Below the pieces are notes generated by a model. That model saw only the letters and a list, made by a program, of their open reading frames with translations, ran no database searches and was not told where the DNA came from. The position numbers and the translations under genes were made by a program. Source: a virus. From it: a stretch of DNA of 64,000 nt. The stretch is from positions 1 through 64,000 of IMG/VR virus record IMGVR_UViG_3300025876_000006; one strand, written 5' to 3'. Shown here in pieces: positions 3,636-16,914 of the stretch. Positions within the stretch are counted from its first letter, which is position 1; each line of letters begins with the position of its first letter.

Positions 3636-3989
3636 ATGCTTGATCAAATTTACCACTATAAGGCACACGTTGTTTATGTGTATGACGGAGATTCTGTTAC
3701 CGTTGATATTGACTTAGGGTTTAATACATGGATGAGAAATCAGAAGATTCGATTTTATGGAATTGACACGCCTGAACTTCGTGGTGAAGAAAGACAAGAT
3801 GGTTTAATAGCGCGCGATCGTTTGCGAGATTTAATTGATGATAAGGAAATTATTATTAAATCTTATAAAGATAAATCTGGAAAATATGGACGTTGGTTAG
3901 CAACAATATTCATTCAAAACGAAAACGGAGATTATACTAATATAAATGATCTACTATTAAATGAGGGCTTAGCTACAGTATATAAATAA
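3636..3989 (+). CDS. staphylococcal-nuclease-like (SNase/thermonuclease) domain protein
   Basis: VYDGDSVTVD...IRFYGIDTPELRGE...GRW matches the SNase catalytic pattern (D, D-x-P-E, R). Confidence 0.75.
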   Translation: MLDQIYHYKAHVVYVYDGDSVTVDIDLGFNTWMRNQKIRFYGIDTPELRGEERQDGLIARDRLRDLIDDKEIIIKSYKDKSGKYGRWLATIFIQNENGDYTNINDLLLNEGLATVYK

Positions 3990-6723: not shown

Positions 6724-6992
6724 GTGAAGAAATAGTAAATAATTTTGCTACATTTGAAGATTTTGGTTTTACTGCGGTAAACGAAGAAGAATTGGATATT
6801 GTGACAAAAGCAACAACTGAAGCCAGCAGTGCACAGGAGCGTTTAGATAAAATGTTTGCTGCAATTAAACCTTTATTAGAAAATCTAGAAAAAGATAGCA
6901 GTAAGGATTACATTTATTGGCCAAACCGAATTGAAAAAATTAATCAATTCCAAGCATTCCTTGATAATATTTACAACGGAACATCTCAGTAA
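6720..6992 (+). CDS. hypothetical acidic protein
   Basis: ATGA overlap with the upstream gene. Confidence 0.55.
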   Translation: MSEEIVNNFATFEDFGFTAVNEEELDIVTKATTEASSAQERLDKMFAAIKPLLENLEKDSSKDYIYWPNRIEKINQFQAFLDNIYNGTSQ

Positions 6993-6994
6993 TT

Positions 6995-8131
6995 ATGAGA
7001 TTCCATTTATTGGGTATACCACATACGGTTACCAATGATGAATATACGGCCTGTGCATATACCGCCAAAGTATTAAAATTTGGTAAAATGTTTACCGGGC
7101 AACCCGGTGTTGAAGTATTTCATTATGGCCATGAAGATAGTAATGTTTGTTGTGATGAACATATTACTGTTACAACCAATGATGATTTACAAAAAGCATA
7201 TGGCTCTCATGATTGGAGAAAAGAATTTTTTAAGTTTAATAATAATGATCATGCTTATACAACCTTCTATGAAAATACTCTTCGTGAATTAAATAAAAGA
7301 TTAAAAAAGAATGACTTTGTTTTAGCTTTTTGGGGATCTGGAGTTAGATCTGTTTGTGGTTTAATTGAAAAAGAAAAGAAAGCTATTGTTGTAGAACCTG
7401 GGATTGGTTATGGTGAAGGCCATTTCGCTAAATGGAAGGTGTGGGAGTCTTATGCTATAATGCACGCCTGTGGCGGTAATAAAATGGTTTTAAATTGTAA
7501 CCCTAATTGGTATGATGTTGTCATACCAAATTATTTTGATGAAACACAATTTGAATATAAAGAAAAAAAGGAAGATTACTTTCTTTATCTTGGTAGAGTA
7601 TATGATGGCAAGGGTGTAAAAATTGCAATTGAAGCAAGCAAAAGAGCTGGAGTAAAATTAGTAATAGCAGGCCAAAAAGAAAAAGGATATAAACTACCAG
7701 ATGACGTTGAGTATATTGGGTATGCTGGAGTTGATAAAAGAAAAGAATTAATGGCAAATGCAAAAGGTTCTTTTTTACCATCAATGTATTATGAACCATT
7801 TGGTGGAGTACAAATTGAAAACTTATTTAGTGGCACTCCAACAATAACTACAGATTGGGGAGCTTTTTCTGAAAACAATTTACATGGAGTAACTGGTTAT
7901 AGATGTAGAACAATGAGCGATTTTGTTGAAGCGGTTCATAATGTTAATGATGGCAAAATTAAAAGCGGCGATTGTAGAAAATGGGCAAATAATTTTAGTA
8001 TAGATAATATACGGCCAAGGTACAAAAAATACTTTGACGATGTTCTTAATGTATATACTGGAAAAGGATGGTATGAAAACAAATCCAAAGAAAGTATTTC
8101 AATTGAACAATTAAAGATGGAATATCCATAG
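6995..8131 (+). CDS. GT-B fold glycosyltransferase (GT4-like)
   Basis: C-terminal half has the GRV..KG...AIEA...KLVIAG ... EPFGGVQIE....G.P.I.TD.GAF.E pattern typical of GT1/GT4 enzymes. Confidence 0.75.
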   Translation: MRFHLLGIPHTVTNDEYTACAYTAKVLKFGKMFTGQPGVEVFHYGHEDSNVCCDEHITVTTNDDLQKAYGSHDWRKEFFKFNNNDHAYTTFYENTLRELNKRLKKNDFVLAFWGSGVRSVCGLIEKEKKAIVVEPGIGYGEGHFAKWKVWESYAIMHACGGNKMVLNCNPNWYDVVIPNYFDETQFEYKEKKEDYFLYLGRVYDGKGVKIAIEASKRAGVKLVIAGQKEKGYKLPDDVEYIGYAGVDKRKELMANAKGSFLPSMYYEPFGGVQIENLFSGTPTITTDWGAFSENNLHGVTGYRCRTMSDFVEAVHNVNDGKIKSGDCRKWANNFSIDNIRPRYKKYFDDVLNVYTGKGWYENKSKESISIEQLKMEYP

Positions 8132-8903: not shown

Positions 8904-9275
8904 ATGAATACATTACTAAAATTAATTAGTCCGTTATTAACCGGATTTTGGAATAAAACAAAATCGGTTGTTCAGTTACTATGGAGTAAAGGCGTCGCCA
9001 TTATTCTACTGGTTATGCTGATTTTAAAGTACACAGGCCTGAGCGATGCACCTTTTGCTGAACTCATTTATGCCGGTGTTCTTACGAGTGCAGTTATCGT
9101 TATTGCGCCGATTATTCGTTTCCTCGTTTTCAATGAGGCGGCGGCTCTCGCCGAGAGTGGAAAAGTTAAAGAGTTACTGAAATTAAAAACAGCAACGCCT
9201 GAGCTTTTACATTATTGGTTTGCAACATTCGTATCTTACGCTGTTACACTACTATGCGTTTCTTCATTACTTTAA
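8904..9275 (+). CDS. multi-pass membrane protein (holin candidate)
   Basis: ATG at 8904 preferred over the GTG at 8877. Three to four hydrophobic segments. Confidence 0.45.
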   Translation: MNTLLKLISPLLTGFWNKTKSVVQLLWSKGVAIILLVMLILKYTGLSDAPFAELIYAGVLTSAVIVIAPIIRFLVFNEAAALAESGKVKELLKLKTATPELLHYWFATFVSYAVTLLCVSSLL

Positions 9276-9889
9276 TTGTACTGACTTTACTAACTGGGTC
9301 CCTTCCTGCTTTCGAGCAGGGAGCGGACTTGCGTGTACAGCGTTTTCTTAATGCAGAAGTTAAGAAGCAATATATACCACAAGTTGATAAAGTTGTTAGA
9401 CGCATTTTATTAAATCAAAAACTATATAAGTGTGTTGATAGTAGAACAGATGTTCCTTGGTATGTTATTGCCAGCCTTCATAATATGGAAAGTGGTGGAT
9501 CATTTAAACACCATTTACATGAAGGGTCTCCATTATATGGTAGAACTCGTTGGGTACCAAAAGGTAGACCTAAAACCAGCGCTCCGCCATTTACGTGGGT
9601 AGAAAGTGCGCAGGACGCATTAAGCTATGATAAGATGGGTCAAAAACGTTGGGCATACTTATTTGATACTCTTTGGGCAGTTGAAGGTTATAATGGAACT
9701 GGCTATTGGAGGTACCATAGATCTACACCTTCGCCATATCTTTATGCTAAGACTTCTATTGAAAAGCCTGGGAAATATGTCTCAGATGGAAAGTGGAGCA
9801 GCACAGCTCGTTCTAAACAAATTGGAGTTGCCGCGATTTGGAAAAGAATGGAAGATAAAAAGATTTTAAACTTTAAGTATTTAAAATAA
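9254..9889 (+). CDS. secreted lysozyme-family protein (COG5526-like)
   Basis: Start at MRFFITLIVLTLLTGSLPAFEQG (signal peptide). Motifs WYVIASLHNMES, GRP, EGYNGTGY, SPYLY recall the 'lysozyme family protein' group common in Alphaproteobacteria. Confidence 0.5.
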   Translation: MRFFITLIVLTLLTGSLPAFEQGADLRVQRFLNAEVKKQYIPQVDKVVRRILLNQKLYKCVDSRTDVPWYVIASLHNMESGGSFKHHLHEGSPLYGRTRWVPKGRPKTSAPPFTWVESAQDALSYDKMGQKRWAYLFDTLWAVEGYNGTGYWRYHRSTPSPYLYAKTSIEKPGKYVSDGKWSSTARSKQIGVAAIWKRMEDKKILNFKYLK

Positions 9890-9902
9890 TTACATTTTTT
9901 TA

Positions 9903-9931
9903 TTTACATAATTCTATTCTTAGTGTATAAT
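9903..9931 (+). promoter_or_regulatory. sigma70-type promoter TTTACA-17-TATAAT
   Basis: TTTACA at 9903-9908, TATAAT at 9926-9931. Followed by a ~90-nt leader with small hairpins. Confidence 0.65.
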
Positions 9932-10023
9932 ATAACTATGAGTTATTAAAGAAACCATAAAGGTTTAAAAACTAAACCCCGAAGGTTCCCGAAGGGATCT
10001 TAAATAACAATAAATATATCATT

Positions 10024-10212
10024 ATGAAAACATCATTAAAAGATTTAAGGATAGATCTAGAAGACCATAAAAAACGATTAAAAGAATTAAGTAATAAAAA
10101 GACTGCGAAAGAATTAGATGAAAAGTTTGGAGTAAAGGCTCTTTATTTAATTCCTACTTATAAAAAGATTATTGGTAGTATAGAAAAAGAAATTATAGAG
10201 CGTACTAAATAA
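10024..10212 (+). CDS. small coiled-coil protein
   Basis: K/E-rich 62-aa ORF. Confidence 0.5.
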   Translation: MKTSLKDLRIDLEDHKKRLKELSNKKTAKELDEKFGVKALYLIPTYKKIIGSIEKEIIERTK

Positions 10213-10216
10213 AGTT

Positions 10217-10795
10217 ATGAACAAACCTAGACGTAAATTTTTAAAGTTATTTGGTTTAACAAGTTCAAGTTTATTTATTAGTAATTTACCAGTAGGTAGT
10301 GCTTTTATTCGTCATGAAGATTACAATAAAAAAGTAAAAGGAATTCCTGATGAATGGTTTATTTTAAATAATGATGTTTATAGATATGCGAATTATATTT
10401 TAAAATTAAACTTAAAAAATATAACTCCAAGAATGGTAATTGCTCCACACTTTAAAACGCGCGGTAGAGTTAGAAATTCTATACCACCAAAGAAGTTATG
10501 GAAGAAGGTTGGCCCAACACTTAAGGTTATTGATAAGTTATGTAATGAGGTTGGATTACCGGTTAAAGAGATAGTCTCAGCATATAGAAGTCCCGAATAT
10601 AACAAAGCAGTTCATGGTAATATAGGATCATACCATATGACGAATCAAGCCGTTGATGTTGTATTTAATAAAAGCTCTTGGCGAGTTGCTAAAGCCGCTA
10701 GAGTACTAAGAGATAACAAAACGTTTAAAGGCGGCATAGGAACTTATCGAGGGTTTGTACATATAGACACTCGTGGAAAAAACGCAGATTGGTAA
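10217..10795 (+). CDS. Tat-exported peptidase M15A / DUF882 (YcbK/MepK-like) peptidoglycan peptidase
   Basis: Twin-arginine signal PRRKFLKLFGL. SAYRSPEYN....G...SYHM...AVDV and GGIGTY..FVHIDTRG match the DUF882/M15 zinc-site pattern. Confidence 0.8.
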   Translation: MNKPRRKFLKLFGLTSSSLFISNLPVGSAFIRHEDYNKKVKGIPDEWFILNNDVYRYANYILKLNLKNITPRMVIAPHFKTRGRVRNSIPPKKLWKKVGPTLKVIDKLCNEVGLPVKEIVSAYRSPEYNKAVHGNIGSYHMTNQAVDVVFNKSSWRVAKAARVLRDNKTFKGGIGTYRGFVHIDTRGKNADW

Positions 10796-11115
10796 TGGAA
10801 ATCTCAATTGATAAACTAAGCGTTATAATGACGAGCGAGGAATATCCCTATTCGATTATTTCATATTTTCCTAGAGATTGTTCTAGTTTTGAATCATATG
10901 ACTTTTGGGAATGTAAAAGAAAAATTAATTCAATAAAGGAAAAACTAAAAGAGGTCATTGTTAATCAATATCTATTATCTTTTTCTGAGAATCCAAAGAC
11001 TGGAGATATTATTGAAATCGAATGTGATGGAGATACCGATAACGTTATTAGTTGGTTACGATGGAAAGACAATTGGTATATTTCCGATATTAAAAACGAG
11101 CCTGTCAAAGTGTAG
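10795..11115 (+). CDS. hypothetical protein
   Basis: ATG at 10795 (TAATG overlap) preferred over the TTG at 10789. Confidence 0.5.
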   Translation: MEISIDKLSVIMTSEEYPYSIISYFPRDCSSFESYDFWECKRKINSIKEKLKEVIVNQYLLSFSENPKTGDIIEIECDGDTDNVISWLRWKDNWYISDIKNEPVKV

Positions 11116-11151
11116 AACTACATTATGTTTATTATTAATTAACATTTTTAA

Positions 11152-11823
11152 TTAGTTATACTTATAATTGAATTTATCTATTACCCATTTTTCTTTCTCT
11201 GCAACCATGTCTATTAACTCTTGAGTGTAATATTCAGTATGTGGTTTTTTATATGAGCTTTTATTAGAGTGTTTAAGTTTTGGGATTGAAGTTATACCAA
11301 CCGCATCACAGAATTTATAAAAATGATTATTATAATCTTCAAGGTTGCCAAGAAAATCTATAGCGATCTCATCGTTACTATCTAAAACATAATTGTCTTG
11401 ACTTGGGTTTGTTTTTATGATAAACTTTAAAAACTCTACTTCATTTCTATTGAAGTTATCAAATACTCTGCCACATTCTTTACCCTGAAGTCTTTTTAGA
11501 GGTTTCCAATTTTTAAGCTCTTCTTCCGTGGCGTTTTTATATTCATTGCCTTTGTTTATTTTATACATAAGGAAAGATACATATCTTTCCCAAGGATTTC
11601 TTAGAGTCGAAAAGGTGGTATATTGATTAAAATCCCAACCGCGTTTTTTAAATCCTCTTTCACAAGCATTCACTGTGCTATGCTGATAAAAATCATCAAG
11701 ATAATCGCCAGGATTACCAATAACATCAATAGGAATAACAGGTAAAAATGTCTCCCTTAGAGTTTTGGTTCCTGTCTTGGGTATGTCAATTGTTATGAAT
11801 TTGTGTTTATGTGATATGAGCAT
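11152..11823 (-). CDS. sulfotransferase-family protein (PAPS-dependent, Sulfotransfer_2-like)
   Basis: 5'-PSB-like IDIPKTGTKTL near the N-terminus and 3'-PB-like LRNPWERYVSF. Confidence 0.65.
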   Translation of the reverse strand: MLISHKHKFITIDIPKTGTKTLRETFLPVIPIDVIGNPGDYLDDFYQHSTVNACERGFKKRGWDFNQYTTFSTLRNPWERYVSFLMYKINKGNEYKNATEEELKNWKPLKRLQGKECGRVFDNFNRNEVEFLKFIIKTNPSQDNYVLDSNDEIAIDFLGNLEDYNNHFYKFCDAVGITSIPKLKHSNKSSYKKPHTEYYTQELIDMVAEKEKWVIDKFNYKYN

Positions 11824-12515
11824 CTCTTAAATAAAATAGATTTGTAAAGTCTTGGAGTTCCATCAAACATTGGTTTGACTATTGTAACTTTTTCCATTTG
11901 AAATCCAATATCAAACATTATTTTTTCAATATCTTCTTGACATAGCATCCACCATGTTTTTCCGTTGTGGTTTTTGTATATAGTCGGTTTCTCATTTTGA
12001 AATGGATTTATTAGGATAGCATGATCCTTAACTCTAAGAAGTATATTCATTAAGGTTAAAATTGGATCTCGTACATGAGAAAGCATGGTTCCAAAAACGG
12101 CCACATCAAAATAACCAATCTCATCAGGGAGCTGTTCGTAAATATTGGCTCTAAATATTTTGTTTTTAGATGAAAGTTTTTCATGAATATATTCATAACT
12201 ATTAAAAAGACTTTCTGATGGTTTTGATTTAGGTTTATTATAGCCTGGATATATTAAGTGATCCCAATAACTACCATCTGGCATATCGAAAGAAACAACA
12301 TCAGCGCCTTTCTTCTCCATTTCAAAAGATAAGTAACCCGAAGCAGATCCAATATCAATTACGCGCTTTCCTTTAAAATCAAAATTACTAAGGTAATCGT
12401 CTATACAGTTTGTAAGATCCCATTTCGCATTGATTTTGTCTTTACCATCAAAGTTAAATGTATGGTAAAATCGACAATCATTTATGTCTATATTTTTTTT
12501 AGGTGTTATGTACAT
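11793..12515 (-). CDS. class I SAM-dependent methyltransferase
   Basis: Motif I VIDIGSASGYLS, acidic loop VVSFD, later DVAVFGTMLSHVRDP. Confidence 0.65.
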   Translation of the reverse strand: MYITPKKNIDINDCRFYHTFNFDGKDKINAKWDLTNCIDDYLSNFDFKGKRVIDIGSASGYLSFEMEKKGADVVSFDMPDGSYWDHLIYPGYNKPKSKPSESLFNSYEYIHEKLSSKNKIFRANIYEQLPDEIGYFDVAVFGTMLSHVRDPILTLMNILLRVKDHAILINPFQNEKPTIYKNHNGKTWWMLCQEDIEKIMFDIGFQMEKVTIVKPMFDGTPRLYKSILFKRCSYHINTNS

Positions 12516-12519
12516 TGTT

Positions 12520-13356
12520 TTATATTTTTTTATATTTGTTAAATAATAATTGATCCCACTTTGTTTGGTTGTTGAAGTTGTCTTTAGTTTCCTCGCTCAA
12601 ACAATTAAAATCATACGTAATCTTTTCCTTTGTTTTATTTGAAAAAGGTTTTATAACATTTTGTAATCGTTGGGGTAAGCTGCAATCCTTAACGTTTAAA
12701 CATGTATATAACACTTTGGAAATAAGTTTATCTACACCTGTGATATCATCAATTAAAAACCCGTCTAGTATTTCGCAGGTTTTTTCGAAATCGTTACTAG
12801 TTATCGGTATTTTATTAGGTATATGTAGTAAAGTCCTAATAAGCCAAGAACCCTCTAAATAAGGAGAGTTTAAATATTCAACAAATGTCATGTCGCCAAA
12901 AATACCGTGCTTGGATTCGTGGGAGGATTGTGAGGATTTTAAATAACTAAATAGCGACAAAACCCTTTCATATGGATCTCTTAAAACCAAGAACTCATAA
13001 AATTTTGTATTTTTGTCTAGTTTTTTGTATATGTCTTCTTTGTATATACCAAAACTAAGATCGCATACCACTATAAAATAAACAGTTAAATCATTAAAAT
13101 CTAGATCTTCATAGTCAACACTTTTATCAATCCAACAACCTGCGTCTTTATATTTGTCATTCAGCTCTTTTTTTGCAGAGCAAACTATACGGTATACAGT
13201 TTTGCCTTCTCTTTTGACTGCTAAGTTGTATGTTGTTAGATCTTTTGTGTTTAATAATCTAATCACATGAAAGGCTTTATTATATACATACGTTCCTGCG
13301 TTCTTAGGTATGTGAAAAAACACTGGAATTTTTTCTATAGTATTTTTTTTAATCAT
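12520..13356 (-). CDS. sulfotransferase-family protein (second copy, divergent)
   Basis: FFHIPKNAGTYV and VLRDPYERVLSLFSY motifs. Confidence 0.65.
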   Translation of the reverse strand: MIKKNTIEKIPVFFHIPKNAGTYVYNKAFHVIRLLNTKDLTTYNLAVKREGKTVYRIVCSAKKELNDKYKDAGCWIDKSVDYEDLDFNDLTVYFIVVCDLSFGIYKEDIYKKLDKNTKFYEFLVLRDPYERVLSLFSYLKSSQSSHESKHGIFGDMTFVEYLNSPYLEGSWLIRTLLHIPNKIPITSNDFEKTCEILDGFLIDDITGVDKLISKVLYTCLNVKDCSLPQRLQNVIKPFSNKTKEKITYDFNCLSEETKDNFNNQTKWDQLLFNKYKKI

Positions 13357-13398
13357 GTAACTTTAAATATATAGTATATATAACGGTAGTTAATTTTA

Positions 13399-13427
13399 TT
13401 TACATCTATGTATAAATAATATATAAT
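13399..13427 (+). promoter_or_regulatory. sigma70-type promoter TTTACA-17-TATAAT, with an embedded TATAAATA (13411-13418)
   Basis: The -10 element ends 7 nt before the ligase ATG (13434), so the mRNA would be leaderless or nearly so. Confidence 0.6.
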
Positions 13428-13433
13428 AATACT

Positions 13434-14564
13434 ATGAAGTTAGATACATTATATTCCAGAGCAACAACTGGAGCTCTTCGCGAATGGACTGTTGAATATG
13501 AAGAAGGAAAATTCCGAACTCATTCTGGTCAAATTGGCGGTAAGATTACAACATCAAAATGGTATTCTGTAACTGCAATGAATGTTGGTAGATCAAATGA
13601 GAGAGGCTTACTTGAACAATCTAAATTCCAAGCAGAAGCTAAATGGAAAAAGAAAGTTGATGGCGGTTATACTCCAGATTTAAAATCTGTTGATGTTAGT
13701 ACTCTTTTTATTAAAGCAATGCTAGCAAAGAAGTGGGAAGATCGAAAAGATAAAATTGAATATCCAGTTTATACTCAACCAAAACTCGATGGTATGAGAG
13801 CTATTATTACAAAGGATGGAGCAAAGTCTCGTAATGGAAAACCATGGGTTACTATTCCACATATTTTAAAATCATTAGAACCAATATTTAAAGTTTACCC
13901 AAATCTTGTATTGGATGGCGAACTATATAATCATGAGTATAAAGAAGACTTTAATACAATCAGTTCATTAGCTAAAAAGACAAAACCAACTGAACAAGAT
14001 CTAAAAGATTCTGCTGATAAACTTCAGTTCTGGTGGTATGATATTATTCCAGTTGACGGATTTTGTGAAGAAGATACTATCTTTTCTGATAGGTTTAAAG
14101 AAATGGTAAATCTTAGTAATGAATATAAACTAAGTGGTATTATATTAGTTCCAACTTATTATCACGATTCTGAAGAAGACCTTAATAACAATTACAAAGA
14201 CTTTATTGAACTTGGATATGAAGGAGGCATGGTTCGCCTTAATTCAAAATATGATCGTAAGCGAAGTAACTCTCTTTTAAAGCGCAAAGACTTTACTGAT
14301 TCAGAATATAAGATTGTTTCTATTGAAGAAGGGAAAGGCAATAAAACAAATATGGCAGGATTTATGGTTCTTGAGAAAAGTGATGGAACTCAATTTCATT
14401 CAAACATTAAAGGTAATCATGAGTTTCTAAAAAACCTGCTAGTTGAAAAGGAAACTTATATTGGATCATATGCGACTTGTACTTATTTTAACTTAACTCC
14501 AGATGGAATTCCAAGATTTCCTTATGTCACTCGTCTGCGAGATGGCGAAGGTGTTGACAATTAA
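13434..14564 (+). CDS. ATP-dependent DNA ligase
   Basis: Adenylation motif I KLDGMR (QPKLDGMRAI), later EG.MV and LLKRK motifs. About 375 aa, T7/T3-ligase-like size. Confidence 0.85.
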   Translation: MKLDTLYSRATTGALREWTVEYEEGKFRTHSGQIGGKITTSKWYSVTAMNVGRSNERGLLEQSKFQAEAKWKKKVDGGYTPDLKSVDVSTLFIKAMLAKKWEDRKDKIEYPVYTQPKLDGMRAIITKDGAKSRNGKPWVTIPHILKSLEPIFKVYPNLVLDGELYNHEYKEDFNTISSLAKKTKPTEQDLKDSADKLQFWWYDIIPVDGFCEEDTIFSDRFKEMVNLSNEYKLSGIILVPTYYHDSEEDLNNNYKDFIELGYEGGMVRLNSKYDRKRSNSLLKRKDFTDSEYKIVSIEEGKGNKTNMAGFMVLEKSDGTQFHSNIKGNHEFLKNLLVEKETYIGSYATCTYFNLTPDGIPRFPYVTRLRDGEGVDN

Positions 14565-14568
14565 ATTT

Positions 14569-14576
14569 TATAAATA
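14569..14576 (+). promoter_or_regulatory. T4-type late promoter motif TATAAATA
   Basis: Exact motif 10 nt upstream of the ATG at 14586. Confidence 0.5.
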
Positions 14577-14585
14577 ACTATTAAT

Positions 14586-16460
14586 ATGGCTATTAATTTT
14601 CCACCCCCAACAACTATTGGGGAAATATATACAGATCCCGCAAGTTCCAGAACATGGAAATGGAACGGTAAAGCATGGGAAGGCCTTACTAGTTCTCTGG
14701 CGAAATCAGTGGCTTACACAGCAGCAGGCACGGGAGCGGTAGACAGGGACGTAGAAACCAAGCTACGTGAGACTTTTAGCGTAACAGATTACGGTACTGT
14801 GGGTGACGGTGTTGCGGATGATCGTGCTGCAATACAGGACGCTATTGACGCCGCTGAATTACTACTTCCTGGTCCTACAGCCGGTACTATCGTCACTCGC
14901 CGCGCATGCGCTGTAGTCGACCTTGCTGGTGGTTTGTATCGTATAACTGACACATTGTTAATAAGCAGACCAATCATCTTCCAGAACGGAACGCTAATAG
15001 CTACAACGGCAATGGCTGGCGATACCACTCCGGGAGCCGGGGCAACCTATATGTTGTATTGCAATGCAAACGCAGATCATGTGACAGTCAGAAACATCAA
15101 TATTGATGGAGGAACTGACGGAGATGAGGCAACAGCTACGGCTAACCTTAACGACTTAATTTTATCATTGGCAATGGGTGCTACTTACGACAACGTTAAC
15201 TTTTCTCACTATAACGATATTGGCATATACATTGGGAACGGAGCTGGTCAGATTGTCAAGGACTGCACTTTTCAGAAATGGGATTTGGTGAATACTACTG
15301 CAATCGGTGATGATTTATATTGGGCAGGCGTCGCAGTTAAAATTCAAATTGCAAGATCCCGAGTTGAGTCATGTCTCTTCCGTAGCTGTGCAACTTGCGT
15401 AGAAACAAATAGTAAAACTTGTTTGATTTCAAATTGCATGTTTAATGCTAACCAATACGGTACGCCAATTAATGGCAGCGGGGCTCCGAGATTAGGAGTA
15501 AACATAACCGCGTCTGCTACTTCCTCAATCACAAACAATATATTTTCTGGCTGTATAGCGTCCCTGTTCACCCATAATCATTCAATAATAGGTAATAACT
15601 TCGTTGCTTATGACTCAAGTCTTTCTGGTGGTGCTATACGTATGACCACGGGAACAGTAGGAGAAAAACTTGAGACTATTGTAGCAAATAATAAGTTCGC
15701 CACTTCTTATACTGACATCATAGACTTCCAGACAACTGGTAGTGGATCTTATGTCGATGACCTCGACCTAGAAATACAGTGGGCAGGAAACTTAAAAGAG
15801 GACGGTTCAACCGCTTGGTATGATGCTAAGTTCGGTGCTGGTAATATAATTAGCAATGGTAAGTTTGTAGAACCATCAGTCACAGGCACAGCAACCTTTA
15901 CCAACTCAACCAACACGATAGCACTAAATGGTGTCGGTCTACTAGAAGGACTGGCTGTCGGTGATGTCATTGAGGTGACGGGATCAACCTCTGGCAATAA
16001 CGACAAGGCGTTTACCGTAACCAACATTGTCAGTGGCGCTCTTGTCGAAGTTAATGACGCTCACGCTAACAAGACATGGACTGCTGCAAACAAGACTCTT
16101 GAAGAGCAGCCTAATGTCAGTGGTGTCACAGTAACACTAGCCTGTAAGGCTAGAAACGCTCCACTAGGATACGGGCAGGGGTGGGTGGATGTTCTTTCTG
16201 CTCGCAGTCCCTTTACCAATTATAATAACTTTACTGGGCGAACCATTGTAGCAGCCATCAGAGGCACTGCGAGCGCACAATTTGGCGCTTTAGATCTACG
16301 CTTTGATGGGCTGATAATAGACAATTCAGTGGCTTCATCAATTAGCGAAATCATTAGCGTTCAAGCTGTAATACCTACCACTCCTGCACTGGTCTACTAC
16401 AGGAGCGAAGCTGCGAATATAATATTTGGCACTTTAGGGACTTGGCACGAACTAAGATAG
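14586..16460 (+). CDS. tailspike/depolymerase-like protein with pectin-lyase-fold (right-handed beta-helix) signature
   Basis: FSVTDYGTVGDGVADDRAAIQDAIDAA is the classic N-terminal motif of the Pectate_lyase_3 / tailspike family. Gly/Asn/Thr-rich beta-helix-like body. G+C-richer than the flanks. Confidence 0.7.
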   Translation: MAINFPPPTTIGEIYTDPASSRTWKWNGKAWEGLTSSLAKSVAYTAAGTGAVDRDVETKLRETFSVTDYGTVGDGVADDRAAIQDAIDAAELLLPGPTAGTIVTRRACAVVDLAGGLYRITDTLLISRPIIFQNGTLIATTAMAGDTTPGAGATYMLYCNANADHVTVRNINIDGGTDGDEATATANLNDLILSLAMGATYDNVNFSHYNDIGIYIGNGAGQIVKDCTFQKWDLVNTTAIGDDLYWAGVAVKIQIARSRVESCLFRSCATCVETNSKTCLISNCMFNANQYGTPINGSGAPRLGVNITASATSSITNNIFSGCIASLFTHNHSIIGNNFVAYDSSLSGGAIRMTTGTVGEKLETIVANNKFATSYTDIIDFQTTGSGSYVDDLDLEIQWAGNLKEDGSTAWYDAKFGAGNIISNGKFVEPSVTGTATFTNSTNTIALNGVGLLEGLAVGDVIEVTGSTSGNNDKAFTVTNIVSGALVEVNDAHANKTWTAANKTLEEQPNVSGVTVTLACKARNAPLGYGQGWVDVLSARSPFTNYNNFTGRTIVAAIRGTASAQFGALDLRFDGLIIDNSVASSISEIISVQAVIPTTPALVYYRSEAANIIFGTLGTWHELR

Positions 16461-16467
16461 AAACATA

Positions 16468-16914
16468 ATGAAAACTACCGTAACCATGATTCCCAAAATA
16501 TACATAGATCCTCAAGGAGAAAGATTCGCAGTTGATGATTCTCGCCCAGAACTCATCCAAAATGACTGGTCGCTATGCGTTCGTAAAGACGATGGCACGT
16601 ATGCCGACAACTATAACGTAGATGGCACACCAGCGCCAGATGATCCAATAGATCCAAGTGCAGTTAAGAGTGAAGCGGGTCGTAGAATAGTAGCCATCTG
16701 CCCAGAATGGAAACAGCGGAACCATATCGCAACCGATTTAACTTACACTAAGATTATTCAAAGCGGGGGAACACTTACTACTGAACAAGAATCTGATAGA
16801 GCAGAGATGGAAGCAGTATGGACAACAATTCAAGGTATTCGTACTAAGTCTGATGAGATTGAAGCTATGTCTCCTATTCCTGCAGATTATAAAGATGACT
16901 CTTATTGGGTTTAA
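16468..16914 (+). CDS. hypothetical protein downstream of tailspike (possible fibre accessory)
   Basis: Tight spacing and similar composition. No motif recognised. Confidence 0.5.
   Translation: MKTTVTMIPKIYIDPQGERFAVDDSRPELIQNDWSLCVRKDDGTYADNYNVDGTPAPDDPIDPSAVKSEAGRRIVAICPEWKQRNHIATDLTYTKIIQSGGTLTTEQESDRAEMEAVWTTIQGIRTKSDEIEAMSPIPADYKDDSYWV

What the first reader, a model, noticed from the sequence alone, without database searches (positions are those of the whole stretch)
11152..13356. Antisense three-gene cassette: sulfotransferase, SAM-methyltransferase, sulfotransferase
This is the only minus-strand block in the first 36 kb. Both flanking genes carry PAPS-binding-type motifs: IPKTGT/IPKNAGT (5'-PSB) and RNPWERYVSF/RDPYERVLSLF (3'-PB). 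The middle gene has class I methyltransferase motifs (IDIGSASG). The genes are tightly packed, and one pair overlaps by 31 nt. Their AT-richness matches the phage, so the cassette appears long resident. Tandem sulfation plus methylation enzymes are typical of glycan or Nod-factor-type tailoring. In a phage they would suggest modification of host surface polysaccharide for superinfection exclusion or receptor masking. Alternatively they could decorate a virion or small-molecule substrate, possibly with the glycosyltransferase at 6995-8131. I do not recognise this as a described phage pathway.
Basis: partly seen in the sequence, partly recalled or inferred. Interest (0 to 1): 0.65.

Follow-up and report, generated by a model that had tools for sequence, protein, structure and literature searches.

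The report
Mobile phage sulfation-methylation gene cassette
An abundant uncultured marine T4-like phage carries a swappable three-gene block of two sulfate-adding enzymes and one methyl-adding enzyme. It most likely finishes a sugar chain tied to host recognition, and no virus enzyme of this kind has ever been tested.

Summary
Three tightly packed minus-strand genes at 11152-13356 encode a Sulfotransfer_2 protein (ST1), a class I SAM methyltransferase (MT) and a second, very divergent sulfotransferase-fold protein (ST2). Both sulfotransferases keep the PAPS-binding lysine loop and the Arg-x7-Ser motif, and their models match almost only solved sulfotransferases.

The trio is mobile cargo rather than a long-resident block. 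It sits exactly between a gene stop and the DNA ligase promoter. A near-identical phage has a single unrelated ST2-type gene in that slot, and another relative has an empty slot and also lacks the nearby glycosyltransferase. The neighbouring tailspike changes with each version.

The same trio (74-86% identity) lies inside the fibre operon of a phage with a different tail-gene set. ST2-MT fusions also exist. Related cassettes sit beside glycosyltransferases, dTDP-sugar enzymes and sugar O-methyltransferases.

The best reading is cytoplasmic sulfation and methylation of a sugar chain, using host PAPS and SAM. Whether the chain is on the phage's fibres or on the host surface is unresolved.

A DNA (hmC) target was tested and weakened. 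Viral sulfotransferases are already catalogued but uncharacterised, so interest is moderate.

The parts
11152..11823 (-). ST1: 223-aa soluble PAPS-type sulfotransferase (Sulfotransfer_2 family; phrog_3347)
   Evidence: Pfam PF03567 scores 33 bits against a cut-off of 22. phrog_3347 matches at 2.5e-10. K16 (PKTGT), H48, R75 and S83 are invariant. The AF2 model has pLDDT 93.6. All 50 listed Foldseek PDB matches are sulfotransferase-fold proteins, led by NDST1, SULT7A1 and HS6ST. BFVD matches are annotated viral sulfotransferases. There is no transmembrane segment.
11793..12515 (-). MT: 240-aa class I SAM-dependent methyltransferase. Its stop overlaps the ST1 start by 31 nt.
   Evidence: Pfam Methyltransf_23 scores 40.2 bits against 27. 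Motif I (D54, G56, S59, G60) is invariant and D77 nearly so. There are weak PDB sequence hits to METTL21B, CmoB, UbiG and WbdD. Natural ST2+MT fusion proteins P0275 and P0285 exist.
12520..13356 (-). ST2: 278-aa divergent sulfotransferase-fold protein with a beta-rich insert (about residues 42-97)
   Evidence: Pfam PF03567 reaches only 17.4 bits, below the cut-off. Relatives L004:4283-6004 (25.2 bits) and P0146 pass. H15, K18, T22, R126 and S134 are invariant. The AF2 model has pLDDT 90.9. The top Foldseek matches are heparan-sulfate 2-O-sulfotransferase 4ndz (E 3.3e-4, probability 1.0) and HS6ST. The family has 184 representatives of 50%-identity clusters at E<=1e-30.
13357..13392 (-). Cargo-side upstream region of ST2, presumed to hold the promoter. 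It has a TATACT -10-like element and no late-promoter motif.
   Evidence: The block TAGTATATATA (plus strand) is shared with the different cargo allele in L124. The scan finds a weak sigma70-like match, TTAACT-16-TATATT. There is no TATAAATA on the minus strand. The region does not match the phage's early-promoter consensus.
11116..11151 (.). Left junction of the cargo slot: a convergent 36-nt spacer after the stop of ORF 10795-11115
   Evidence: Flank similarity to L124 and L125 ends at the C-terminus of the 106-aa ORF. In L125 its stop is followed directly by the ligase promoter, which is the empty site.
13393..13433 (+). Right boundary of the slot: the DNA ligase promoter (TTTACA-17-TATAAT with an embedded TATAAATA). 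It is conserved with and without cargo.
6995..8131 (+). GT1: GT4-type glycosyltransferase. It is a candidate partner and lies downstream of the fibre gene, between the late-promoter motifs at 3981/3993 and 8161.
   Evidence: Pfam Glycos_transf_1 at 4.7e-17 and phrog_3408 at 5e-158. It is present in W and L124, which carry cargo, and absent in L125, which has the empty slot. Its S-CAM7 homologue lies among baseplate and tail-fibre genes next to a 2OG-Fe(II) oxygenase.
14586..16460 (+). Pectate-lyase-fold tailspike-like protein whose allele changes together with the slot cargo
   Evidence: Pfam Pect-lyase_RHGA_epim at 5.9e-11. It is 624 aa with the trio (22 of 22 contigs), 324 aa with only the N-terminus conserved in L124, and 325 + 371 aa in L125. 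A TATAAATA motif lies at 14569.

Best explanation
The block is an accessory, horizontally exchanged tailoring operon. It holds two soluble cytoplasmic PAPS-dependent O-sulfotransferases of very different lineages (ST2 and ST1) and a SAM-dependent methyltransferase.

The tight spacing (a 4-nt gap and a 31-nt overlap) suggests the three are made together. They would use the host's PAPS and SAM, because the phage encodes no APS kinase. They would add two sulfate groups and a methyl group to a saccharide acceptor.

That acceptor is probably a sugar chain built by glycosyltransferases: GT1 at 6995-8131 here, and other GT families in related cassettes. It belongs to the phage-host recognition interface, because the cargo changes together with the fibre and tailspike genes.

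**Shown:**
- the gene structure;
- the folds and cofactor-binding motifs;
- the slot polymorphism;
- the mobility of the trio;
- the ST2-MT fusions;
- the glycan-gene neighbourhoods.

**Inferred:**
- enzyme activity;
- a saccharide acceptor;
- which molecule carries the glycan.

My split for the carrier is about 35% a glycan on the phage's own fibre or spike proteins, about 30% a host envelope polysaccharide precursor (receptor remodelling), and the remainder something else.
For: **Enzyme identity.** Searches support the assignments. None of the three proteins has a transmembrane segment.

**Functional coupling.**
- The trio is conserved in the same order, with the same 31-nt overlap, at 74/86/82% identity in L018, a contig with lambda-type tail genes and otherwise unrelated flanks.
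- It recurs at 42/72/49% identity in L016, and in a different order in L019-21.
- ST2 and ST1 occur together in all 14 loci found by ST1 and in about two thirds of the non-redundant ST2 loci.
- P0275 and P0285 are single polypeptides that fuse ST2 and MT.

**Saccharide context.**
- L058 holds GT2, a rhamnosyltransferase, GT2, a rhamnosyl O-methyltransferase and two NDP-sugar epimerases or dehydratases directly upstream of ST1 and MT homologues.
- L019 holds RmlB-like and dTDP-sugar isomerase genes.
- Other neighbours are GT61, a GT47-like gene, FkbM methyltransferases and DxD-motif GT-like families.
- Among 150 neighbour gene families, the commonest Pfam types are sugar-type methyltransferases and NDP-sugar enzymes.
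- The closest solved folds are carbohydrate sulfotransferases.

**Recognition link.**
- The three slot alleles co-vary with the tailspike and fibre alleles and with GT1.
- In about 12 of 37 loci, cassettes sit in or beside fibre-like genes (LRR_5, DUF285, DUF4376, PTR/LamG fibres).
Against: - No activity, PAPS binding or acceptor has been shown. The Foldseek scores are modest (E 2e-3 and 3e-4, TM 0.35-0.5).
- The window's own genome has no nucleotide-sugar genes and no PAPS synthesis gene. The pathway would therefore depend entirely on an unknown host.
- Distant cellular ST1 homologues (22-27% identity) sit with Asp/Asn beta-hydroxylases and 2OG oxygenases, not with sugar genes. This points to protein or peptide acceptors in that branch.
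- The cassette lacks the TATAAATA late promoter carried by the fibre, spike and baseplate units. This fits poorly with a purely virion-directed role. In L018 and L022, however, it lies inside a fibre operon, which fits poorly with a purely early, host-directed role.
- The co-variation with GT1 rests on three haplotypes only.
Confidence: 0.6

Rival explanations
1. Sub-variant A, virion decoration. The enzymes sulfate and methylate a glycan that GT1 (and perhaps the GT-like ORF inside the distal fibre module) builds on the phage's own fibre or tailspike proteins in the cytoplasm before lysis. The particles would then carry an acidic, strain-specific sugar coat.
For: - In L018, L022, L023 and L028 the cassette lies co-directionally inside fibre operons. 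In other loci it lies next to LRR_5, DUF285 or DUF4376 fibre-module genes.
- GT1 lies directly downstream of the fibre gene, between the late-promoter motifs at 3981/3993 and 8161. Its S-CAM7 homologue lies between baseplate and tail-fibre genes.
- All the enzymes are soluble, and no flippase or polymerase gene was seen.
- The fibre proteins are 20-28% Ser+Thr.
- Virion glycosylation has a precedent in mycobacteriophages (Freeman et al. 2023, cited in PMC12801897).
Against: - The cassette in this phage is on the opposite strand and has no late-promoter motif.
- Cargo genes often collect near fibre genes simply because those regions recombine.
- I found no description of a sulfated phage virion.
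- Ser/Thr richness is common in fibres.
Confidence: 0.35
2. Sub-variant B, host-surface remodelling. The enzymes act on lipid-linked or nucleotide-linked precursors of the host's capsule or O-antigen-like polysaccharide. This changes the receptor that the pectate-lyase-type tailspike recognises. The effect would be superinfection exclusion, or protection of progeny from re-adsorbing to debris.
For: - The cargo co-varies with the tailspike allele.
- The cassette has its own non-late promoter region on the opposite strand.
- Sulfotransferases are typical of the hypervariable surface-polysaccharide islands of marine bacteria (bioRxiv 10.64898/2026.04.03.716430).
- Cell-surface-modification gene sets in T4-like cyanophages are usually read this way (PMC12801897).
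- From my own knowledge: seroconversion genes lie next to tailspike genes in epsilon15 and Sf6.
Against: - Known seroconverting enzymes (Gtr, Oac) are membrane proteins of temperate phages. These three proteins are soluble and the phage is T4-like.
- The host is unknown, so its PAPS supply and polysaccharide are unknown.
- In other phages the cassette sits inside fibre operons.
Confidence: 0.3
3. Direct protein or peptide sulfation. The sulfotransferases act on hydroxylated or tyrosine residues of a collagen-like or tail-collar-type fibre protein. This would follow hydroxylation by the phage's 2OG-Fe(II) oxygenase, as Iyer et al. proposed for bacterial loci.
For: - In Sphingopyxis the ST1-type gene lies between two Asp/Asn beta-hydroxylases, a 2OG-Fe(II) oxygenase, a TPR-Sulfotransfer_3 protein and TonB receptors. 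This matches PMC2938197.
- This phage has a P4H-type 2OG-FeII_Oxy_3 gene at genome 169274-169882 and GxY collagen-like repeats in the fibre at 154577-156733.
Against: - Those cellular homologues are only 22-27% identical.
- The closer phage homologues sit with sugar genes. No 2OG oxygenase appears among the 25 listed Pfam families of the phage neighbour families.
- The oxygenase here is about 12 kb away across the genome ends.
- The Collagen Pfam hit is below threshold.
Confidence: 0.1
4. DNA hypermodification. The phage makes 5-hydroxymethylcytosine DNA. GT1 and the trio would decorate it with a sulfated or methylated sugar, or activate the hmC hydroxyl, to evade restriction.
For: - The genome encodes a full-length T4 gp42-type dCMP hydroxymethylase (E 7e-78 to PDB 1b49).
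- The cassette abuts the DNA ligase gene, lacks a late promoter, and its products are soluble.
- Strain-variable cargo resembles the agt/bgt variability of T-even phages (my own knowledge).
Against: - None of the 30 viral records that carry ST2/ST1 genes encodes any thymidylate-synthase-family enzyme. This includes none of the 7 records that are at least 90% complete. The family therefore does not need hydroxymethyl-pyrimidine DNA.
- Related cassettes sit in fibre operons and sugar clusters.
- I know of no sulfated DNA base.
Confidence: 0.05
5. Small-molecule tailoring. The acceptor would be a metabolite, lipid or signalling molecule (as in Nod-factor or sulfolipid chemistry) rather than a polymer-bound glycan.
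For: - The combination of a sulfotransferase and a methyltransferase recalls NodH/NodS and secondary-metabolite tailoring (my own knowledge; PMC2938197).
- The MT has generic small-molecule methyltransferase relatives (UbiG, CmoB, OvoA).
Against: - No backbone-synthesis genes (NRPS, PKS, chitin-oligomer synthase) were seen in any locus.
- Co-variation with fibre and spike genes would be unexplained.
Confidence: 0.08

Closest known systems
Carbohydrate sulfotransferases of the Sulfotransfer_2 type and related types (heparan-sulfate 2-O-, 6-O- and N-sulfotransferases; PDB 4ndz, 3f5f, 5t05, 1nst, 8chs)
   Same: They share the P-loop-like alpha/beta fold. The 5'-phosphosulfate loop has an invariant Lys (PKTGT / PKNAGT). 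The 3'-phosphate motif has Arg and Ser eight residues apart. They are the best structural matches.
   Different: Sequence identity is only 11-15% and TM scores are 0.35-0.5. The phage proteins are small and soluble, with no Golgi stem or membrane anchor. ST2 has a beta-rich insert. No acceptor or regiochemistry can be inferred.
Annotated but uncharacterised viral sulfotransferases (phrog_3347; Ralstonia phage phiRSL1, Roseobacter phage SIO1 gp5.1, Prochlorococcus phage P-SSM7, pithoviruses, Megaviridae), and 'sulfotransferase AMGs' of virome surveys
   Same: They share the fold and the family label. Marine viromes list sulfotransferase together with RmlD and epimerase genes (PMC12285232). The function is stated to be unclear (PMC10580990).
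   Different: Here there is a defined three-gene operon with a second sulfotransferase lineage that Pfam rarely detects. There is also a fixed insertion slot with alternative alleles. tblastn of the three proteins found nothing in 50,697 deposited phage records.
Cell-wall and LPS synthesis or modification gene sets of large T4-like cyanomyoviruses (P-SSM2, S-SCSM1, S-SCSM2R)
   Same: These are T4-like marine phages with accessory glycosyltransferases and NDP-sugar enzymes of unknown target, usually read as host-surface modification (PMC12801897). GT1 is 60% identical to the S-CAM7/ACG-2014f glycosyltransferase.
   Different: That paper lists no sulfotransferase. This phage has no psbA and is only about 32% identical in gp6 to any isolate. 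The cargo here is a minimal tailoring set without sugar-nucleotide genes.
Virus-encoded virion glycosylation: mycobacteriophages Che8, Corndog and Myrna (Freeman et al. 2023, cited); chlorovirus PBCV-1 A064R, which caps capsid glycans with O-methyl-rhamnose (my own knowledge)
   Same: Soluble, virus-encoded glycosyltransferases and methyltransferases act in the cytoplasm on structural proteins. The genes lie next to structural genes.
   Different: No sulfation is known in those systems. Virion glycosylation is not shown here. The cassette is not in a late transcription unit in this phage.
Bacterial hydroxylase-sulfotransferase neighbourhoods (Iyer, Abhiman, de Souza and Aravind 2010, PMC2938197)
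   Same: Distant ST1 homologues in Sphingopyxis, Lysobacter and Caulobacterales lie in exactly such loci. That paper proposed tail-collar and collagen-like proteins as substrates, and this phage has a 2OG oxygenase and a collagen-like fibre.
   Different: Identity is only 22-27%. The phage cassettes sit with sugar genes, not with hydroxylases.
Rhizobial sulfation systems (NodH with NodPQ; NodS methylation; LpsS) (my own knowledge)
   Same: Sulfation and methylation of a saccharide by soluble cytoplasmic enzymes that use PAPS and SAM.
   Different: No PAPS-synthesis genes are present and there is no chitin-oligomer machinery. No sequence match to rhizobial Nod or Lps families appeared in the Pfam or NCBIfam scans.

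Membership tests
PAPS-dependent sulfotransferase superfamily (Pfam Sulfotransfer_2, PF03567) | Profile match at or above the curated threshold | tested here: met
   ST1 scores 33 bits against a cut-off of 22, and 32.1 bits in the six-frame genome search.
PAPS-dependent sulfotransferase superfamily (Pfam Sulfotransfer_2, PF03567) | Profile match at or above the curated threshold (ST2) | tested here: inconclusive
   ST2 scores 17.4 bits, below 22, and only over the 3'-PB motif. ST2-family relatives pass: L004:4283-6004 at 25.2 bits, and P0146 carries a precomputed PF03567 hit. Reciprocal weak HMM hits link the ST1 and ST2 profiles. hhalign probability is only 22%.
PAPS-dependent sulfotransferase superfamily | 5'-phosphosulfate-binding strand-loop-helix with a conserved Lys (PKxGT/S) | tested here: met
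   In ST1, IDIPKTGT has K16 invariant and lies between strand 9-11 and helix 19-26. In ST2, HIPKNAGT has K18 and T22 invariant and lies between strand 9-14 and helix 21-35.
PAPS-dependent sulfotransferase superfamily | 3'-phosphate-binding strand-helix with Arg and Ser eight residues apart | tested here: met
   ST1 has R75 and S83; ST2 has R126 and S134. All are invariant and lie at the strand-to-helix turn of the models. The spacing equals that of SULT1E1 R130/S138 and HS2ST R164/S172 (my own knowledge).
PAPS-dependent sulfotransferase superfamily | Overall fold resembling solved sulfotransferases | tested here: met
   For ST1, all 50 listed PDB matches are sulfotransferase-fold proteins (best E 2.4e-3, probability 0.97-0.99). 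For ST2, the top five are heparan-sulfate 2-O- and 6-O-sulfotransferases (E 3.3e-4, probability 1.0).
PAPS-dependent sulfotransferase superfamily | PAPS binding and sulfuryl transfer to an acceptor | not testable with these tools
Class I SAM-dependent methyltransferases (Methyltransf_23) | Profile match above threshold, with glycine-rich motif I and an acidic residue after beta-2 | tested here: met
   PF13489 scores 40.2 bits against 27. D54, G56, S59 and G60 are invariant and D77 is nearly invariant.
Phage seroconversion modules (GtrABC, Oac-type O-antigen modifiers) | Integral-membrane modifying enzymes | tested here: not met
   The maximum 19-residue hydropathy is 0.57-1.32 for the three proteins, so none has a transmembrane segment.
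Phage seroconversion modules (GtrABC, Oac-type O-antigen modifiers) | Demonstrated change of the host O-antigen or capsule | not testable with these tools
   The host is unknown and uncultured.
Self-sufficient sulfation loci (NodPQ-NodH type; phage CysDNC + sulfotransferase cassettes noted elsewhere in this scan) | PAPS-synthesis genes (APS kinase, ATP sulfurylase) encoded alongside | tested here: not met
   PF01583 (APS_kinase) has no match in the complete 170,716-bp genome, while the controls are positive. ATP sulfurylase was not searched separately.
Virus-encoded virion glycosylation systems | Glyco-enzyme genes embedded among structural genes | tested here: inconclusive
   This holds for GT1 (downstream of the fibre gene) and for the trio in L018 and L022. 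In this window the trio lies on the opposite strand between a small ORF and the ligase gene, with no late-promoter motif.
Virus-encoded virion glycosylation systems | Glycans detected on virion proteins | not testable with these tools
hmC-DNA decoration systems (T-even agt/bgt type) | dCMP hydroxymethylase in the same genome | tested here: met
   The ORF at genome 105537-106235 matches T4 gp42 over its full length, with E 7e-78.
hmC-DNA decoration systems (T-even agt/bgt type) | The modifying enzymes travel with the hydroxymethylase across genomes | tested here: not met
   None of the 30 ST-bearing viral records, including none of the 7 that are at least 90% complete, has a Thymidylat_synt-family gene.

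The most novel reading that the evidence does not exclude
The cassette, together with GT1, gives the phage's own fibres or tailspike a sulfated, O-methylated glycan. The slot alleles (trio, single ST2-type gene, empty) would then define interchangeable 'glyco-serotypes' of otherwise near-identical virions. This would be the first sulfated glycan on a bacterial virus. It would also point to a widespread, unrecognised layer of virion surface chemistry in marine phages. I speculate that it could affect host range, stickiness to marine gels or escape from decoys; nothing here bears on these effects.
Probability: 0.3. Interest if true: 0.75.

Novelty: new variant of a known kind. Interest (0 to 1): 0.45.

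Why it matters
Sulfotransferase genes are counted in marine viromes as 'sulfur-cycle AMGs', yet the papers I found give no target for them.

This case offers a concrete handle. The operon is compact and conserved, and it comes from an abundant phage: identical proteins occur on more than 100 assembled contigs. The slot also has natural alternative alleles and an empty-site control. Across phages there is genetic linkage to fibre, tailspike and glycosyltransferase genes.

The question 'what do phage sulfotransferases modify?' therefore becomes directly testable by co-expression and mass spectrometry.

If the target is the virion, it adds sulfation to the short list of phage particle modifications. 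If the target is the host surface, it is a soluble, lytic-phage counterpart of seroconversion.

It also flags the ST2 lineage. This family has hundreds of 50%-identity clusters and many fusions, and Pfam largely misses it.

Tried and rejected
**Deposited phages.**
- Megablast of 9000-16500 found no match in 50,697 phage records.
- tblastn of the three proteins against the same records also found nothing.

**Sequence searches of the PDB.** The ST1 and ST2 profiles gave only spurious hits (gbs1892, Csm2). Fold search was needed instead.

**Profile comparison of ST1 and ST2.** hhalign aligned only the 3'-PB motif, with probability 22%. I treat them as separate lineages of one fold rather than as recent paralogues.

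**Cyanophage identity.** No psbA was found. The best gp6 identity is about 32%, to cyanophages, OM43 phages and pelagiphages. The host is left open.

**Self-sufficient sulfation.** No APS kinase was found.

**Sugar-nucleotide or extra glycan genes in the genome.** tblastn with the L058, L019 and L016 cluster proteins found only the trio and one weak hit, at 153905-154327.

**hmC-DNA target.** I considered this after finding gp42. It was weakened because none of 30 ST-bearing records has a thymidylate-synthase-family gene.

**Promoters and terminators.**
- No intrinsic terminator was found.
- Sigma70-like matches were not above chance (21 found against 17 expected).
- Expression timing rests only on the absence of TATAAATA and of the phage's early consensus.

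**Library limit.** Several neighbour families therefore remain unnamed:
- the DYDV-motif family;
- the ExD family;
- the 297-aa ORF;
- the fusion partners.

Full report
**1. Context**

The window is the first 64 kb of a complete 170,716-bp IMG/VR virus record with direct terminal repeats. It is a T4-like myovirus, with a gp32-type SSB, gp6/gp7/gp5-type baseplate genes and a tape-measure-like gene. It lacks psbA. Its gp6 is only about 32% identical to that of any deposited phage; the best matches are cyanophages, OM43 phages and pelagiphages. No deposited phage matches the region at the DNA level.

The exact proteins of the three genes occur on 102-140 assembled contigs of up to 172 kb, from JGI, ENA, Logan and NCBI. 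The phage is therefore common in public metagenomes.

**2. The observation**

The three minus-strand ORFs are as described: ST1 at 11152-11823, MT at 11793-12515 and ST2 at 12520-13356. The 31-nt MT/ST1 overlap and the 4-nt ST2/MT gap are real, and the trio of L018 has the same overlap. Other minus-strand ORFs in the first 36 kb overlap plus-strand ORFs and look spurious.

Cassette GC is 30.4% against 35.0% for the genome, which is the 2nd percentile of 2.2-kb windows. GC3 and codon usage are ordinary.

**3. What the proteins are**

*ST1.*
- It passes the Pfam Sulfotransfer_2 threshold (33 against 22 bits) and matches phrog_3347.
- M1-S4, K16, H48, R75 and S83 are among the invariant residues in 38 homologues.
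- The model has pLDDT 93.6.
- All 50 listed PDB matches are sulfotransferase-fold proteins, led by NDST1, SULT7A1 and HS6ST.
- In the viral structure library it matches annotated sulfotransferases of phiRSL1, SIO1 (gp5.1), P-SSM7, pithoviruses and Megaviridae.

*MT.*
- It passes Methyltransf_23 (40.2 against 27 bits).
- SAM motif I is invariant.
- By sequence its relatives are generic: CmoB, UbiG, METTL21 and WbdD.

*ST2.*
- By sequence it is subthreshold (17.4 bits, on the 3'-PB motif only).
- H15, K18, T22, R126 and S134 are invariant.
- The model has pLDDT 90.9.
- Its top structural matches are heparan-sulfate 2-O- and 6-O-sulfotransferases (E 3.3e-4, probability 1.0).
- Relatives in its family pass the Pfam threshold.

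In both sulfotransferases the PKxGT loop follows the first strand, and the Arg-x7-Ser pair sits at a strand-helix turn. This is the classical 5'-PSB and 3'-PB arrangement.

ST1 and ST2 are only distantly related to each other (hhalign probability 22%). None of the three proteins has a hydrophobic segment.

The ST2 lineage is large. It has 184 representatives of 50%-identity clusters at E<=1e-30 and 751 at E<=1e-3. Pfam rarely detects it: only 1 of the 37 listed homologues has a precomputed Pfam hit.

**4. The three genes work together**

- The trio recurs in the same order at 74/86/82% identity in L018. That 75.6-kb contig has lambda-type tail genes (Phage_tail_L, Phage-tail_3), and almost none of its other genes are shared with this phage.
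- It recurs at 42/72/49% identity in L016 and L017, and in a different order, next to dTDP-sugar genes, in L019-21.
- An ST2 gene lies just upstream of ST1 in all 14 IMG/VR loci found with ST1. The two occur together in about two thirds of the non-redundant loci found with ST2.
- Two cluster representatives, P0275 (507 aa) and P0285 (516 aa), are natural ST2-MT fusion proteins (domain E-values 1e-58 to 1e-88). Tandem ST2-ST2 fusions are common.
- P0275 lies on a phage-like contig directly after a 379-aa gene with a DxD-type motif.

**5. It is mobile cargo in a defined slot**

L124 (the same contig as L039) is a near-identical relative. Its flanking proteins are 86-100% identical (ligase 98.7%, M15 peptidase 99.5%, GT1 96.3%). 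Between the 106-aa ORF and the ligase gene, however, it carries a single ST2-type gene that is only 31% identical. Its tailspike is a different allele of 324 aa.

L125 (ligase 94% identical) has an empty site. There the stop codon of the 106-aa ORF is followed directly by the ligase promoter, TTTTATTTACA-17-TATAAT. L125 also lacks GT1 and has different fibre and spike genes.

All 22 contigs read that carry the identical ligase have the trio together with the 624-aa spike.

The block is a stable allele of one sub-lineage, sitting in a strain-variable slot, and its state changes with the receptor-binding genes.

**6. What it acts on**

*Guilt by association in phage loci points to sugars.*
- L058 is a phage-like contig binned into a Flavobacteriales MAG. 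It holds GT2, a rhamnosyltransferase, GT2, a rhamnosyl O-methyltransferase (CmcI type) and two NDP-sugar epimerases or dehydratases, directly upstream of ST1 (36%) and MT (48%) homologues.
- L019 holds RmlB-like and dTDP-sugar isomerase genes.
- Other loci add GT61, a GT47-like gene, FkbM methyltransferases, Sulfotransfer_3 and two unnamed families with DxD-like motifs.
- Among 150 distinct neighbour families, the commonest Pfam types are FkbM (4), Methyltransf_24 (3), Methyltransf_23 (2), Epimerase (2) and RmlD (2). Single families include dTDP_sugar_isom, UDP-galactopyranose mutase, GDP-mannose dehydratase and a sulfatase.

*About a third of loci place the cassette in or beside fibre-type genes.* These are LRR_5/BspA, DUF285, DUF4376 and a family of roughly 1000-aa fibres homologous to the window's 603-aa fibre.

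*In this phage:*
- GT1 lies directly downstream of the fibre gene, between the late-promoter motifs at 3981/3993 and 8161.
- Its S-CAM7 homologue lies between baseplate and tail-fibre genes, next to a 2OG-Fe(II) oxygenase.

**7. Expression class**

The window has 17 TATAAATA motifs, no more than chance predicts. Thirteen of them, however, lie within about 90 nt upstream of a start codon on the correct strand, and eleven of those within 25 nt. The genes they precede include the fibre unit, the envelope cluster, the ligase gene, the tailspike and the baseplate genes.

None lies on the minus strand upstream of the cassette. The ligase promoter matches the phage's repeated early-promoter consensus, but the ST2 upstream region does not. 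A TATACT-containing block is shared by the trio and by the single-gene allele.

The cassette therefore does not look late-transcribed here. In L018 and L022, by contrast, it is embedded in a fibre operon. The acceptor question stays open.

**8. Rivals tested**

*DNA target.* The genome encodes a full-length T4 gp42-type dCMP hydroxymethylase, so hmC DNA is likely. However, none of the 30 ST-bearing viral records has any thymidylate-synthase-family gene, and that includes all 7 records that are at least 90% complete. The enzyme family does not depend on hmC.

*Protein hydroxyl sulfation.* Distant cellular ST1 homologues (22-27% identity) lie between Asp/Asn beta-hydroxylases, a 2OG oxygenase, a TPR-Sulfotransfer_3 protein and TonB receptors, as Iyer et al. 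described (PMC2938197). This phage has a P4H-type oxygenase and a fibre with collagen-like repeats. The closer phage homologues sit with sugar genes instead.

*Self-sufficient sulfation.* The genome has no APS kinase, so host PAPS is required.

**9. Comparison with what is known**

- Viral sulfotransferases are annotated and counted in viromes (PMC12285232, PMC13079714).
- One paper states that their function in phages is unclear (PMC10580990).
- Glycan-gene sets of T4-like cyanophages are read as host-surface modifiers without any test (PMC12801897).
- Sulfotransferases are typical of the surface-polysaccharide hypervariable regions of marine bacteria.
- Virion glycosylation is established for mycobacteriophages (Freeman et al. 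2023, cited).
- I found no description of a sulfated phage product or of this three-gene operon.

Earlier notes of this scan describe other phage sulfotransferase cassettes. I treated them as leads only.

**10. Verdict**

The enzyme assignments are well supported, and a saccharide acceptor is the best-supported inference (about 0.6). The carrier of that saccharide is unresolved, at roughly 35% virion fibres and 30% host surface.

This is a new variant of a known kind of phage accessory function. Interest is moderate, and it comes with an unusually clean set of natural alleles for experiments.

Noticed in passing
own genome 105537-106235 (outside the window; locus L201): A full-length T4 gp42-type dCMP hydroxymethylase (E 7e-78 to PDB 1b49). 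This marine T4-like phage probably has 5-hydroxymethylcytosine DNA. Which enzyme, if any, decorates the hmC is unknown; GT1 at 6995-8131 is a candidate.
   Followed up: partly
own genome 153455-154348 (outside the window): A 297-aa ORF sits inside the distal tail-fibre module. It has a VVHIRAGDH motif that recalls the HxRxxD motif of fucosyltransferase-type enzymes (from memory). It is weakly similar (26% over 163 aa) to the 399-aa gene just upstream of ST1 in L058. It has no Pfam hit.
   Followed up: partly
own genome 169274-169882 and 154577-156733 (outside the window): A P4H-type 2OG-FeII_Oxy_3 oxygenase, and a 718-aa fibre with GPQGEDGAVGATG collagen-like repeats whose C-terminal part resembles that of the tailspike at 14586-16460.
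   Followed up: partly
window, 17 TATAAATA sites (e.g. 3981, 3993, 8161, 13411, 14569, 38607-, 40741-, 41206, 47986, 54761, 62178): The count of the T4-type late-promoter motif is no higher than chance. Even so, 13 of the 17 sites lie within about 90 nt upstream of a start codon on the correct strand, 11 of them within 25 nt. Position rather than number marks them as real.
   Followed up: partly
window 13393-13433: The DNA ligase promoter matches the consensus of the phage's repeated early-promoter cassettes (ATTTTATTTACA-17-TATAAT). It also contains a TATAAATA late motif, so the ligase gene may be expressed both early and late.
   Followed up: partly
L125:3954-4018 and 6960-7001: A close relative (ligase 94% identical) lacks both GT1 and the sulfotransferase cargo, and carries different fibre and spike genes. 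It serves as a natural empty-site control.
   Followed up: yes
L002:6707-8104: A 465-aa formylglycine-type sulfatase (CSPSR motif, no signal peptide) lies directly downstream of the ST2 / GT-like / ST2-like / ST1 genes on an 11.5-kb viral contig. A sulfotransferase and a sulfatase thus sit in one block.
   Followed up: no
L046 (= L013, 213.8-kb contig), L007, L043, L049: Some large marine viral contigs carry 4-7 tandem ST1-type paralogues with several GT-like genes. These are sulfotransferase arrays far richer than the trio.
   Followed up: no
P0216 (2021 aa), P0207 (958 aa), L053:6312-8846 (844 aa): ST2 domains occur in long multidomain proteins, often as tandem ST2-ST2 with an unidentified N-terminal part of about 290 aa. 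In L044, L045, L051 and L053 they are followed by giant DUF285/LRR proteins.
   Followed up: partly
L067:3955-9245 (Sphingopyxis sp. J-6 chromosome): A conserved bacterial locus holds a TPR-Sulfotransfer_3 protein, a 2OG-Fe(II) oxygenase, two Asp/Asn beta-hydroxylases and a Sulfotransfer_2 protein, flanked by TonB-dependent receptors. The product of this hydroxylation-sulfation pathway is unknown.
   Followed up: partly
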